Virus record (IMG/VR): IMGVR_UViG_3300008050_000025
Span: 1 to 64,000 of that record
Strand: one strand, 5' to 3'
Source of the DNA: a virus
DNA length: 64,000 nt
Made by a program: the position numbers and the translations under genes
Shown: piece after piece, positions 6,781 through 12,456 of the stretch
Position numbering within the stretch: the first letter of the stretch is position 1
How the letters are laid out: each line of letters begins with the position of its first letter
Notes under the pieces: generated by a model
What the model was told of the DNA's origin: nothing
Databases searched by the model: none
What the model saw: the letters and a program-made list of their open reading frames with translations, nothing else

Positions 6781-7109
6781 TCAGAACTCCCATTAGCAAT
6801 GCGCAGAGCATTGGCAATATCTTTCACAGAGTTTTTGTTATCATTCCAAATCCTTTGAGTAACATCCCCACTAGGAGTCATCAAAGTAAAGAAGTCTGTT
6901 GCAATGTGATACGTTTGCCAACGTTTGTAAGAAGAAGATTCAGAGTTCAACTCAAACAACAGGCGCTGATGCAAAGGGGTTGTCCTTTCTTGCTCGTTCT
7001 CCAAAAAGTCTTTTGCTTCCTGTTTAGCTGCAATCATTCCTTGGAAGTCAGTGGAGTCTGCGAGTCGTTCAAAGAGTTCGCGTGGTACTTTAATGTTCGT
7101 TGATTTCAT
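6777..7109 (-). CDS. hypothetical protein
   Basis: ATGA-coupled on both sides. Confidence 0.7.
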   Translation of the reverse strand: MKSTNIKVPRELFERLADSTDFQGMIAAKQEAKDFLENEQERTTPLHQRLLFELNSESSSYKRWQTYHIATDFFTLMTPSGDVTQRIWNDNKNSVKDIANALRIANGSSE

Positions 7110-8233
7110 CCTTTAATGTTGATGATTGGGTGTACGTGGTGAAGTGTTTTAACAAGGTCTTCTTGCAAGTGCATCACTTCATTAATGTCTTTGTATGCGA
7201 AGGGAGACTCATCTAACGTATCTTTAACGACACGGGCTTGAGTGCCTTGCATAGTAGCTTTAAAGTCCTCCATTGAAAGCTCACGCTTAGCTTGCTTTCT
7301 ACCAAGAACTCTTCCTGCTCCATGAGAGCTAGAATATAGTGATTCAGGATTTCCTTTGCCTTCAACAATGAAAGAGCCGTCACGCATGTTGCCTGGAATT
7401 ACACCTGACATACCTTTCTCTGCGTGAGTTGCACCTTTCCTGTGAACAATAGTTCCACCTGTAATCTCTGCGTGGTTGTGGTTTCGGTTAATCAGATGGT
7501 TCCAATCTCCCTCACCAACAATAATCTTGGCCATCACTTTCTCAACAGCTTTAGCAATTCTAGTACGGTTTAACAAAGCAAACTTCAAAGCCCAAGACAT
7601 GTCTTGGTAATAATCAGAGCCTTCTTTGCTCATAATATTAAAACCAAAGTGGTCTTCACGGGGCTTTCCATCAGGAGAAGCTAAACGCATATACTCAGTT
7701 GCAATACCATGACCTACGCCACGACTACCTGAGTGAACAATAATCCAAGTTCTTTCATCGGTTCCAACACCGATTTCAATGAAGTGGTTGCCACCTCCTA
7801 GAGTTCCTAAATTACGGAACCCTTTCCTCTTATCAAATGCCCCCTGCCCCAATGGGGTTAGGTCACTGGCGAATAAGTTTGGAGAATCCTGGAATTCCTC
7901 ATGCGCGTTGAATCCAACGGGCACTTTGCTATAAATCTCATCGAAGATGGCTTTAGAGTTTTCTCTCACTTCATATGCATCAAAAGAAGTCGGAAGAGCT
8001 AACATGCCACATCCAATATCATAACCTACCCAAGCAGGAATGATTACATCTTTCGTTGCCACAACAGCACCAATAGGTAATGCGTAGCCTGGGTGTGCAT
8101 CGGGCATCATAGCTCCTTGCACTGTAAAATCCATATGCATAGCAGATACGAATTGGTCAATGGCTCCTTGCTCTAAGACCTCTGCGTAAATCTTGTATGG
8201 TTTTCCTAAGTCGTCTAGTTCTTTAACTTTCAT
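7106..8233 (-). CDS. rtcB: RtcB RNA ligase
   Basis: MPDAHPGY, VGYDIGCG, LGTLGGGNHFIE, VHSGSRG, HRKGAT, SSHGAGR, DESPFAYK motifs. Confidence 0.95.
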   Translation of the reverse strand: MKVKELDDLGKPYKIYAEVLEQGAIDQFVSAMHMDFTVQGAMMPDAHPGYALPIGAVVATKDVIIPAWVGYDIGCGMLALPTSFDAYEVRENSKAIFDEIYSKVPVGFNAHEEFQDSPNLFASDLTPLGQGAFDKRKGFRNLGTLGGGNHFIEIGVGTDERTWIIVHSGSRGVGHGIATEYMRLASPDGKPREDHFGFNIMSKEGSDYYQDMSWALKFALLNRTRIAKAVEKVMAKIIVGEGDWNHLINRNHNHAEITGGTIVHRKGATHAEKGMSGVIPGNMRDGSFIVEGKGNPESLYSSSHGAGRVLGRKQAKRELSMEDFKATMQGTQARVVKDTLDESPFAYKDINEVMHLQEDLVKTLHHVHPIINIKG

Positions 8234-9791: not shown

Positions 9792-10360
9792 TCTTCCATG
9801 TCCATTTGTTGTGCTAGACTCGTCTTCAAACGTTTAATCATTTTCACCACCTTAGAGGTTGGCATGTTTGTGTTTCTAGCAATCTTTGAAATGTTGAACT
9901 TACCGTTCAACTTGAAATAACTGACATCAGATAAAATCTCTGACACCAACTCTGAAATGTCGTCGTCGAACTCAATCTCAAACAACTTACTGTCGAAGTC
10001 ATGGTTAGGGTCTGGAAGGTTATCTTCTACAAACTCTCCGCCTATTGCACTCAAGCTAATCACGTCACCATCGACAGCGCGTTTACGATATGCTTCTTTC
10101 GTTAGGTGGGAACGTTTATACCATAGACAAGCCTTGATGTAAGCATTGAACTTCTTAGTTTCAAAGTACTCATCAAAAGGCCCGTCTTCTTTATTGGTCT
10201 TCTCAAACCCTTCTACAGCCAGTAGCATTACAATCTTTAACTCAGAGAGTTTGTCTGCAATCTCAAGGCTTGTAAATGATGGTGTGCGGTTAGCAGCGAA
10301 CATAGCAAGCTTACCATACTTCTTCCATAGCTTTTCCCACTGAGGGTTGGTTAAACTCAT
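9788..10360 (-). CDS. RNA polymerase sigma-factor-like protein
   Basis: Region-2-like segment (KFNAYIKACLW) and C-terminal HTH (ISKIARNTNMPTSKV). Confidence 0.6.
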   Translation of the reverse strand: MSLTNPQWEKLWKKYGKLAMFAANRTPSFTSLEIADKLSELKIVMLLAVEGFEKTNKEDGPFDEYFETKKFNAYIKACLWYKRSHLTKEAYRKRAVDGDVISLSAIGGEFVEDNLPDPNHDFDSKLFEIEFDDDISELVSEILSDVSYFKLNGKFNISKIARNTNMPTSKVVKMIKRLKTSLAQQMDMEE

Positions 10361-11280
10361 TTAATAAGTTCTCCTTCCTGCGTAAGGATGGTTTTGTGAA
10401 AATCAATCACAGTTCGGTCTTGCACTTCCTTGTTAAGGGTTTGAACATGTCGCATAGCGGATGCACTTGTCTCAAAGTCACCGTAAAAGTGACTACCTTC
10501 TTCCTTTAGATGAAATCTATTCTCGATGGTAAAACTGCGTGGGCGAAAACCATCACACTCATGTTGATACCCATAAGGGTTACAAAGAACTAATACACTA
10601 AAACATGTGTAGTGTTCCATTACTTTATGAGTATGCCCATGAATCCATAGGTCAAACTTCCCAACCAGATGGTCAGAAACTCCTGCTTGGAATGCTGCAT
10701 TCAGCAAACTGTGCTCATACTCTGGGTCAATGGAGTCTTCATTTGGCAAGTGGTGTGTTACGCATATTTTTAGCTTCCCTTCATACCCATGCTGGTCGAA
10801 TGCTTCTAATGCGGCAATAAACGTATCATGCTCATCACACAGGTCACCAGCGTAGAGATAGTTTAGCTCAGGCATGTACATTTTGGCCAAACCCATGTTC
10901 CCTTTATCCCTTCCACCGTAATCTGTCCACATAGTTCCGCCAAAGAACACTGCCTCATCGTTCTCAAACACGTTACCAGGAGTTAGGATATGTACATTAG
11001 AGAAGTCCATATCTTTCATGTGCCTACGTAAAAGCCCATCAGCGCCAACTCCTTCTAAAATGTAGTCATGATTGCCGAGAGCAACAATAACATCTTTGAA
11101 CCAAGCGGAACATTCACTAATGAATAGTTTCTGTTGGGTCATGCGAGGACTGATGTCCCCTGCGATAATTAACGTATTGCTTTCAGGCTCCCACTCTTCA
11201 CTTGTTAGCTCAGGGATAAACTTTTGAATCCTTGCTGAGCGATGGTCAATATGTATGTCTGATAAGTAATAGTACTTCAT
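10357..11280 (-). CDS. calcineurin-like metallophosphoesterase
   Basis: SDIH, AGD, GNHD, THH, HGHTH motifs. Confidence 0.9.
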   Translation of the reverse strand: MKYYYLSDIHIDHRSARIQKFIPELTSEEWEPESNTLIIAGDISPRMTQQKLFISECSAWFKDVIVALGNHDYILEGVGADGLLRRHMKDMDFSNVHILTPGNVFENDEAVFFGGTMWTDYGGRDKGNMGLAKMYMPELNYLYAGDLCDEHDTFIAALEAFDQHGYEGKLKICVTHHLPNEDSIDPEYEHSLLNAAFQAGVSDHLVGKFDLWIHGHTHKVMEHYTCFSVLVLCNPYGYQHECDGFRPRSFTIENRFHLKEEGSHFYGDFETSASAMRHVQTLNKEVQDRTVIDFHKTILTQEGELIK

Positions 11281-12130: not shown

Positions 12131-12208
12131 TGGAGCCAGCGGTGAGATTCGAACTCACGATTAGCTTGTTTACAAAACAAGTCCTTTAGGCCACTTAGGT
12201 ACGCTGGC
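12131..12208 (-). tRNA. tRNA-Thr(UGU)
   Basis: GCCAGCG/CGCTGGC acceptor, CTTGT-TTTGTAA-ACAAG anticodon arm, GTTCGAATC, encoded CCA. Confidence 0.92.
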
Positions 12209-12214
12209 GTTGAG

Positions 12215-12301
12215 TGGTAGGAGTGGAGAGAATTGAACTCTCATGCGACCGTTACCCTAGTTTAAATTGCACGGCATATAAGACCGCTGGGATACACTCC
12301 C
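12215..12301 (-). tRNA. non-canonical tRNA-Ile(UAU)-like RNA lacking a normal D-arm
   Basis: GGGAGTG/CACTCCT-ACCA acceptor, perfect T arm GAGAG-TTCAATT-CTCTC, anticodon arm GCGGT-CTTATAT-GCCGT, only 7 nt between acceptor and anticodon stems, 28-nt variable region. Confidence 0.7.
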
Positions 12302-12320: not shown

Positions 12321-12348
12321 ATTATAGGGACTCCTCCGTCAAAGTCAA
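12321..12348 (-). promoter_or_regulatory. sigma70-type promoter for tRNA cluster
   Basis: TTGACT-N16-TATAAT. Confidence 0.75.
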
Positions 12349-12382: not shown

Positions 12383-12456
12383 TGGCAAAGCGAAGAAGAA
12401 TCGAACTCCTATCTAAGGATTTGGAATCCCCAATGTTGCCATTACACCCTCGCCCT
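12383..12456 (-). tRNA. tRNA-Trp(CCA)
   Basis: AGGGCGA/TCGCTTT acceptor, GGGGA-TTCCAAA-TCCTT anticodon arm, TTCGATT, encoded CCA. Confidence 0.85.

What the first reader, a model, noticed from the sequence alone, without database searches (positions are those of the whole stretch)
12215..12301. tRNA-Ile(UAU)-like RNA with the D-arm apparently rewired into the variable region
Seen: GGGAGTG TATCCCA GCGGT-CTTATAT-GCCGT [GCAATTTAAACTAGGGTAACGGTCGCAT] GAGAG-TTCAATT-CTCTC CACTCCT ACCA. The acceptor, anticodon and T arms and the CCA are intact, but only 7 nt replace the D-arm. The 28-nt variable region holds GGGTA, complementary to the connector TATCC (one G:U), followed by a D-loop-like AACGGT. Inference: the D helix and GG/T-loop contact are rebuilt with a permuted topology. 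It is the first gene after a near-consensus promoter, which argues against decay. A UAU anticodon would read AUA without TilS/lysidine, and the altered fold could evade host tRNases or act as a decoy. Standard tRNA finders may miss it.
Basis: partly seen in the sequence, partly recalled or inferred. Interest (0 to 1): 0.8.

Follow-up and report, generated by a model that had tools for sequence, protein, structure and literature searches.

The report
Phage isoleucine tRNA with permuted D-arm
This 87-base phage gene is very probably a working isoleucine tRNA for the AUA codon whose D-arm parts are all present but joined in a different order from the universal cloverleaf, a layout shared by hundreds of phages, missed by a standard tRNA finder and absent from every paper I could search.

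Summary
ARAGORN misses it. Rfam's tRNA model scores it 31.2 bits against a cut-off of 29.

It is not a decayed gene. I found over 150 distinct relatives in phage and metagenome contigs, usually inside tRNA clusters. Cultured phages carry them too, mostly unannotated: 79 Streptomyces phage records and a crAss-like Bacteroides phage.

Covariation shows a 3-bp helix between RNA positions 11-13 and 45-47. It is 99% paired in 96 sequences, with double changes at all three pairs.

The layout is: acceptor, U8 A9, D-stem 3' strand, N26, anticodon arm, spacer, D-stem 5' strand, D-loop (A14, R15, G18 G19), then 46-48 and the T arm.

- The R15:Y48 tertiary pair covaries (A:U 85, G:C 30, one exception).
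- A73 is invariant in 116 UAU members.
- 45 arginine members with the same layout all carry A20, the main ArgRS determinant.

Aminoacylation, decoding and the reason for the rewiring are untested. The scan had already noted this family on other genomes, and my analysis agrees.

The parts
12321..12348 (-). sigma-70-like promoter, TTGACT, 16-nt spacer, TATAAT; the predicted start lies about 13 nt before the tRNA 5' end
   Evidence: 11 of 12 consensus matches; sequence
12215..12301 (-). whole gene: permuted-core tRNA-Ile(UAU), 84 nt plus encoded CCA
   Evidence: Rfam 31.2 bits; R1 72.6 bits; leave-one-out model R2 70.5 bits, E 5e-17
12295..12301 (-). acceptor stem 5' strand (RNA 1-7); pairs with 12219-12225
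   Evidence: family-wide, all 7 pairs show double changes, 97% paired
12293..12294 (-). U8 A9, present in every member found (partly fixed by my search patterns)
12289..12292 (-). UCCC: equivalent of the D-stem 3' strand (canonical 22-25), placed directly after A9; its CCC pairs with GGG at 12255-12257
   Evidence: covariation; RNAalifold predicts the helix unaided
12288..12288 (-). A: equivalent of position 26, between the D-stem strand and the anticodon stem
   Evidence: the 4+1+5 spacing is the same in all members
12271..12287 (-). anticodon arm; loop CUUAUAU with anticodon UAU at 12278-12280; the 17-nt arm is identical to that of canonical phage tRNA-Ile(UAU) genes in L004 and L005
12258..12270 (-). 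13-nt A/U-rich spacer (positions 44-45 plus linker); 5 nt (mostly AGAAA) in most relatives, 8 or 11 nt in subclasses
   Evidence: spacer lengths 5:98, 11:9, 8:8, 13:1
12254..12257 (-). GGGU: equivalent of the D-stem 5' strand (canonical 10-13)
12246..12253 (-). AACGGUCG: D-loop equivalent (A14, A15, C16, G18, G19, U20, C, G21)
   Evidence: A14 116/116, GG then U in 113/116 Ile members. GG then A in 45/45 Arg members
12243..12245 (-). CAU: equivalent of 46-48; its U is the Levitt partner of A15
   Evidence: 15:48 is A:U 85, G:C 30, G:G 1
12226..12242 (-). T arm, 5 bp with loop UUCAAUU
12215..12225 (-). acceptor 3' strand, discriminator A73 (12218) and encoded CCA (12215-12217)
   Evidence: A73 in 116/116 UAU members although unconstrained by the search pattern
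12131..12208 (-). ordinary tRNA-Thr(UGU), 6 nt downstream; probably co-transcribed
   Evidence: 59.8 bits

Best explanation
The gene encodes a functional elongator tRNA for isoleucine (anticodon UAU, codon AUA). It belongs to a large phage family in which the tRNA core is circularly permuted. The block holding the D-stem 5' strand and D-loop (canonical 10-21) and the block holding the D-stem 3' strand, N26, the anticodon arm and 44-45 (canonical 22-45) have swapped order. A short linker joins 45 to 10.

Shown: the D-stem forms as a long-range helix that encloses the anticodon arm. The D-loop equivalent (A14, R15, G18 G19) lies just before 46-48 and the T arm. The 15:48 pair covaries.

Inferred: the usual tertiary contacts are kept (U8:A14, R15:Y48, G18/G19 with the T loop, 26:44), so the molecule folds into the normal L shape. 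The three new chain joints (9 to 22, 45 to 10, 21 to 46) link residues that are neighbours in the canonical fold. The RNA is transcribed from its own promoter together with tRNA-Thr and trimmed by RNase P. It already carries CCA. Host IleRS charges it (A35, U36, A37, A73) and it supplies AUA decoding alongside the phage's other tRNAs for A- and G-ending codons.
For: Cultured phages: 82 records, 79 of them Streptomyces phages, plus Kehishuvirus 'tikkala'. The region is unannotated at the sites I inspected.

Helix 11-13:45-47: 98.6% paired in 23 sequences and 99.3% in 96. Pair types at 12:46 are CG46, GC29, UA17, AU2, UG2. At 13:45 they are CG64, GC27, UA2. At 11:47 they are CG91, AU5. Slid controls pair 38-51%. 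RNAalifold finds the same helix on a MAFFT alignment.

Tertiary pair and identity: Levitt pair A:U 85, G:C 30, one exception, with both types on three helix backgrounds. A73 is 116/116, and A37 and U33 are invariant.

Arg members: 45 distinct members with anticodons ACG, UCG or CCG all have A straight after GG. That is the A20 that the identity review PMC9976931 calls the main ArgRS determinant. Ile members have U there.

Context: members sit in phage tRNA arrays. This window has a near-consensus promoter and an encoded CCA. The leave-one-out model scores 70.5 bits. My own scanner finds 111 in the held loci and 0 in 1.7 Mb of shuffled sequence. AUA makes up 180 codons, 10% of Ile codons, in the phage's long ORFs, and the genome has no other Ile tRNA.
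Against: There is no expression, aminoacylation or structure data for any member.

For this single sequence, nearest-neighbour energies do not favour the model.

The D helix has only three Watson-Crick pairs plus a constant U.U. The E. coli minor Ile determinants (C4-G69, the 12-23 pair) are not kept. The 3D compatibility of the new joints rests on textbook knowledge of tRNA tertiary contacts, not on a model I computed.

Many invariant motifs (GUAUC, GUAAYGGUC, CAUG) were fixed by my search patterns, so their conservation is partly ascertainment.
Confidence: 0.8

Rival explanations
1. It is a tRNA-like decoy or regulator that is not used in translation. For example, it could soak up a host anticodon nuclease, a tRNA-modifying enzyme or a tRNA-sensing defence system. 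The odd core would keep it out of the ribosome or away from some enzyme.
For: The non-cloverleaf core could plausibly impair some step of translation. The phage has RNA-repair-type genes nearby: RtcB at 7106-8233 and a metallophosphoesterase at 10357-11280. Phage tRNAs are known to counter tRNA-targeting defences (papers listed, e.g. PMC10264068, PMC11464382). No functional data exist.
Against: Selection keeps features that matter for charging rather than only for nuclease recognition. These are A73 in all Ile members, A20 in all 45 Arg members with G/A73 in 42 of 45, intact 7/5 acceptor and T helices with heavy covariation, and CCA here. Anticodons stay within single amino-acid boxes. The genes sit among ordinary tRNAs and fill gaps in the sets.
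Confidence: 0.12
2. It is a precursor that RNA cutting and rejoining, for example by the phage RtcB ligase, rearranges into a normal cloverleaf tRNA. This would resemble the circularly permuted tRNA genes of red algae.
For: An RtcB gene lies 4 kb away in this phage. Permuted tRNA genes processed through circular intermediates are known (PMC3978253, listed).
Against: The two ends of the acceptor stem are in normal order, so the algal mechanism does not apply. Restoring the canonical order would need an internal block transposition with two cuts and two ligations, and I saw no bulge-helix-bulge motif. Four complete phage genomes that carry family members have no RtcB. The permuted order itself keeps all the pairings, which covary as they stand.
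Confidence: 0.03
3. It is a decayed or recombinant tRNA pseudogene. The D-arm was lost, junk was inserted in the variable region, and it is a chimera of a Lys-type top half and an Ile anticodon arm.
For: The 5' 9 nt and the 3' 30 nt are identical to a canonical tRNA-Lys(UUU) in an unrelated contig. The single-sequence fold is not better than shuffles. ARAGORN rejects it.
Against: The same architecture recurs in >150 distinct sequences with compensatory changes in every helix and in a tertiary pair. The gene has its own strong promoter and CCA. The leave-one-out model gives E 5e-17.
Confidence: 0.02
4. It is a genuinely D-armless tRNA of the mitochondrial type, with a floppy connector. Either there is no D-like helix or the helix is the reader's TATCC:GGGTA.
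Against: GAU and Arg members with UACC/GGUU cannot form it at all. The D-loop motif, the 15:48 covariation and A20 in Arg members argue for a real D-domain.
Confidence: 0.03

Closest known systems
Canonical bacterial and phage tRNA-Ile(UAU) (Rfam RF00005 cloverleaf), e.g. L004 3599-3675 and L005 7436-7513
   Same: The 17-nt anticodon arm is identical to the window's. It has a 7-bp acceptor stem, a 5-bp T arm, A73 and the same presumed job of reading AUA without lysidine.
   Different: Canonical genes have a D hairpin between position 9 and 26. Here the D-stem 3' strand follows A9 directly, and the 5' strand plus D-loop come after the anticodon arm.
D-armless mitochondrial tRNAs (mammalian mt-tRNA-Ser(AGY), nematode mt-tRNAs; reviewed in PMC7609411)
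   Same: There is no D hairpin in the usual place, and a short connector follows the acceptor stem.
   Different: Those tRNAs have lost the D-domain and are shortened and flexible. This family keeps every D-arm element, is 3-11 nt longer than a normal tRNA and keeps the 15:48 and GG signatures.
Circularly permuted tRNA genes of Cyanidioschyzon merolae (PMC3978253)
   Same: The order of tRNA segments in the gene is changed.
   Different: There the whole gene is permuted (3' half before 5' half) and processing restores a normal tRNA. Here only an internal domain is permuted, the ends are normal, and the mature RNA is predicted to keep the new connectivity.
allo-tRNAs with 8/4 or 9/3 acceptor/T configuration, many with UAU anticodons (Mukai et al., PMC5389517)
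   Same: These are non-canonical tRNAs found by metagenome mining, partly in phages, and UAU is a common anticodon.
   Different: allo-tRNAs change helix lengths within a cloverleaf and have long variable arms. This family is 7/5 with changed strand connectivity.

Membership tests
tRNA, canonical cloverleaf (Rfam RF00005) | 7-bp acceptor stem, 5-bp T stem with a GTTCRA-type loop, and a 5-bp anticodon stem with a 7-nt loop carrying U33 and R37 | tested here: met
tRNA, canonical cloverleaf (Rfam RF00005) | D-arm hairpin between positions 9 and 26 | tested here: not met
   Only 5 nt lie between A9 and the anticodon stem. The Rfam alignment deletes 15 model positions there.
tRNA, canonical cloverleaf (Rfam RF00005) | score at or above the curated gathering score | tested here: met
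   31.2 bits against 29. ARAGORN does not call it.
   CCC:GGG in the window.
   AACGGUCG then CAU in the window. Family 15:48 is A:U 85, G:C 30.
   R2: 70.5 bits, E 5e-17; the next best hit in the window is 24.4 bits
Isoleucine-accepting tRNA | anticodon in the Ile box, A37 and discriminator A73 (the strong determinants per PMC9976931) | tested here: met
   UAU, A37 and A73 in the window. A73 is 116/116 in the family.
Isoleucine-accepting tRNA | charged by IleRS and not by MetRS; reads AUA and not AUG | not testable with these tools
   needs biochemistry
D-armless mitochondrial-type tRNA | loss of the D-stem and of the D-loop/T-loop contact elements | tested here: not met
   Both D-stem strands and the GG loop are present and conserved.
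Circularly permuted tRNA gene (Cyanidioschyzon type) | 3' half encoded upstream of the 5' half, with the acceptor ends joined in the precursor | tested here: not met
   The acceptor 5' and 3' strands are at the two ends of the gene in normal order.
allo-tRNA (8/4 or 9/3) | acceptor stem of 8-9 bp with a T stem of 4-3 bp | tested here: not met
   7/5 here and family-wide

The most novel reading that the evidence does not exclude
The permuted core is an adaptive design rather than a neutral accident. The D-stem/D-loop domain is re-threaded in just those tRNAs (Ile and Arg) whose synthetases read D-loop nucleotides: A20 for ArgRS and G16/D20/D21 for IleRS (PMC9976931). Phages would then make tRNAs that host synthetases and ribosomes still accept, but that some host tRNA-directed enzyme, such as a defence nuclease, toxin or modification enzyme, can no longer recognise. 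That would be a second viable topology for a translating tRNA, kept by an arms race.
Probability: 0.25. Interest if true: 0.95.

Novelty: new variant of a known kind. Interest (0 to 1): 0.85.

Why it matters
The cloverleaf connectivity is treated as universal for cytoplasmic-type tRNAs. Known exceptions lose arms or change helix lengths, but none re-orders the strands. If these RNAs are charged and decode, the L-shaped core tolerates circular permutation.

- Standard annotation under-counts phage tRNA sets. Here it hides the phage's only Ile tRNA, and in Streptomyces phage Mildred21 one member is labelled tRNA-Phe and another tRNA-OTHER.
- The design offers a natural scaffold for orthogonal tRNA engineering.
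- Cultured carriers exist (Streptomyces cluster BE phages and a crAss-like Bacteroides phage), so the question can be tested directly.

Tried and rejected
- **DNA search of the 2-kb neighbourhood and of the element against GenBank phages:** no match. The phage's PolA is at most 27% identical to any cultured phage, so the host is unknown.
- **Neighbour protein (309 aa) in viral contigs:** no relatives.
- **Pattern requiring the window's own acceptor and T arm with a long interior:** 0 hits.
- **Two of my patterns had a spacing error** (9 instead of 8 N between GTATC and the anticodon loop). Their results are void. The 8 genome hits had no model match. Only the first genome-contig scan, with 0 hits, says anything about cellular genomes, and it used a strict motif.
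- **Linked partner protein:** ORFs from 154 loci were clustered. The commonest cluster is in 37 loci, and the top clusters have no tRNA-related Pfam domain.
- **RtcB as a partner:** absent from 4 complete carrier genomes.
- **Single-sequence folding:** does not recover the model.
rejected.
- **Literature:** eight full-text searches and four papers read found no description of this layout. Subscription journals are not covered.

Full report
**What is there.**
- It has a 7-bp acceptor stem and a 7-nt connector in place of the D-arm.
- The anticodon stem has 5 bp and the loop is CUUAUAU (anticodon UAU).
- A 28-nt stretch follows, then a normal T arm, A73 and an encoded CCA.

A TTGACT-16-TATAAT promoter sits at 12348..12321, directly upstream. 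An ordinary tRNA-Thr(UGU) follows 6 nt downstream. ARAGORN finds six tRNAs in the window and in the whole 101,825-bp phage record, but not this one. Rfam's tRNA model matches it at 31.2 bits, just over the 29-bit cut-off, by skipping the D-arm.

**It is a family, not a wreck.** The exact anticodon arm occurs in two canonical phage tRNA-Ile(UAU) genes and in one gene with the same odd layout.
- A motif scan gave 2 viral and 30 metagenome loci with that layout.
- In all I collected 116 distinct UAU sequences.

These genes lie inside phage tRNA clusters, and ARAGORN misses all but one. Cultured phages carry them as well: 79 Streptomyces phage records, the crAss-like Kehishuvirus 'tikkala' of Bacteroides cellulosilyticus, and bajarodcaudo virus 1. 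At the sites I inspected the region carries no annotation. One strict motif scan of 185,579 prokaryote species genomes found none.

**Structure.** On a MAFFT alignment of 23 members, positions 11-13 pair with 45-47 in 98.6% of cells. Pair 12:46 shows CG, GC, AU, UG and UA, and pair 13:45 shows GC and CG. RNAalifold predicts this helix without guidance.

On 96 sequences the helix is 99.3% paired, and all three pairs show changes on both sides. Sliding the partner by one to three columns drops overall pairing to 38-51%. The concept is therefore right and the register is one base off.

In the window's own sequence both registers can form.

**Mapping on the canonical tRNA.** The spacing is the same in all members.
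- After U8 A9 come four nt (UCNN, UCCC here), one nt, then the 5-bp anticodon stem. This is the canonical run 22-25, 26, 27-31.
- After the anticodon arm come a spacer and then NNGU (GGGU here). The spacer is 5 nt in most members and 13 nt here.
- Next comes A-R-(Y)-GG-U-N-(A), which is the D-loop consensus A14 R15 G18 G19 (A21).
- Three nt follow (CAU or CAC), then the T stem.

Blocks 10-21 and 22-45 have therefore swapped places. The domain 10-45 is circularly permuted, and a short linker joins its old ends.

From textbook knowledge of tRNA tertiary structure, the three new joints connect residues that already touch. A9 contacts the 12:23 pair, position 45 contacts the 10:25 pair, and A21 and position 46 stack in the core. 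This part is inference, because I could not build a 3D model.

**Independent support for a real D-domain.** The Levitt pair R15:Y48 covaries: A with U in 85 sequences, G with C in 30, and one G-G. There is no A-C or G-U. These positions were unconstrained by the search pattern. Both types occur on three different D-helix backgrounds.

The same architecture occurs with the GAU anticodon, often next to a UAU copy. It also occurs with arginine anticodons. Mildred21 has UCG, ACG and a UCU-like copy. A scan found 45 distinct ACG, UCG or CCG members. In all 45, the base after GG is A. In 113 of 116 Ile members it is U.

A20 in the D-loop is the main determinant for bacterial ArgRS, together with C35 and A/G73 (PMC9976931). 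Ile members have A73 in 116 of 116. Arg members have G or A in 42 of 45. Selection on synthetase determinants argues that these RNAs are charged.

**Function in this phage.** The phage's tRNA set is Thr UGU, Trp CCA, Arg CCU, Arg UCU, Gly UCC and Pro UGG, which covers A- and G-ending codons. AGA and AGG make up 60% of its Arg codons, and AUA accounts for 180 codons, 10% of Ile. A UAU tRNA fits that set, and it is the genome's only Ile tRNA. I conclude that it is a working AUA decoder. Its transcription, processing, charging and decoding are all inferred.

**Rivals.**
- A non-translating decoy is not excluded, but it is hard to square with the synthetase determinants.
- Re-ordering by RNA ligation is unlikely. 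The ends are in normal order, and four complete carrier genomes lack RtcB, although this phage has RtcB at 7106-8233.
- The comparative data rule out a pseudogene.

**Why the rewiring exists is open.** No partner protein is shared near the genes. One lead: the only two identities found so far, Ile and Arg, are ones for which the identity review lists D-loop determinants.

**Novelty.** I found no paper that describes this layout. I checked eight full-text searches, the 2020 review of non-canonical tRNAs, the allo-tRNA paper and a 2026 survey of 4-bp anticodon stems. Subscription-only literature was not searchable.

The scan's own earlier notes report the same family on at least eight other genomes, including the Ile-plus-Arg range. 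I built the permuted-arm model, before reading those notes. The Arg check in Mildred21 and the scan of 45 Arg members came after them, and the Arg range was already stated there.

**Caveats.** Motifs fixed in my patterns (GUAUC, the GUAAYGGUC loop form, CAUG, the T loop) inflate apparent conservation. The covarying positions, 15:48, position 20 and 73 were free. Searches used a wrong spacing and are void.

Noticed in passing
L002:7093-7166 (minus strand) versus window 12215-12301: A canonical tRNA-Lys(UUU) in an unrelated viral contig shares the window element's first 9 nt and last 30 nt exactly (T arm, acceptor 3' strand, ACCA). Nothing else in the two contigs matches. This could be a swap of the acceptor/T 'top half' between tRNA genes, or convergence.
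   Followed up: partly
Streptomyces phage Mildred21 MF155946.1: 91367-91442, 94857-94933, 86379-86453, 73703-73779: There are four permuted-core tRNAs in one cultured phage. The UCG copy is annotated tRNA-Phe(gaa), the UCU-like copy is annotated tRNA-OTHER, and the ACG and GAU copies are unannotated. The GAU copy lies just after a tRNA nucleotidyltransferase gene.
   Followed up: partly
window 7106-8233 and 10357-11280 (minus strand): An RtcB RNA ligase (Pfam E 1.4e-89) and a calcineurin-like phosphoesterase lie a few kb from the tRNA genes. This looks like an RNA-repair pair of the kind phages use against tRNA-cleaving defences.
   Followed up: no
family-wide; window 12258-12270: Long-spacer subclasses keep A/U-rich, partly palindromic spacers (for example GGAUUAUAAUG or CAUUAACA) across members with unrelated acceptor stems. 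The window has the longest spacer seen, at 13 nt. Its role is unknown.
   Followed up: no
family-wide; window 12271 and 12287: The top pair of the anticodon stem (27:43) is a U.U mismatch in 92 of 116 UAU members (G.U in the window), so the stem is effectively 4 bp. A 2026 paper links 4-bp anticodon stems to relaxed decoding (PMC13092985).
   Followed up: no
L036, L037, L034, L047, L057, L067: Several phages carry both a canonical tRNA-Ile(GAU) and one or two permuted Ile tRNAs in the same cluster, so the permuted form does not simply replace the ordinary one.
   Followed up: partly
window 12383-12456 (minus strand): The tRNA-Trp(CCA) just upstream of the promoter has two G.U pairs in its acceptor stem and scores only 46 bits with Rfam.
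   Followed up: no
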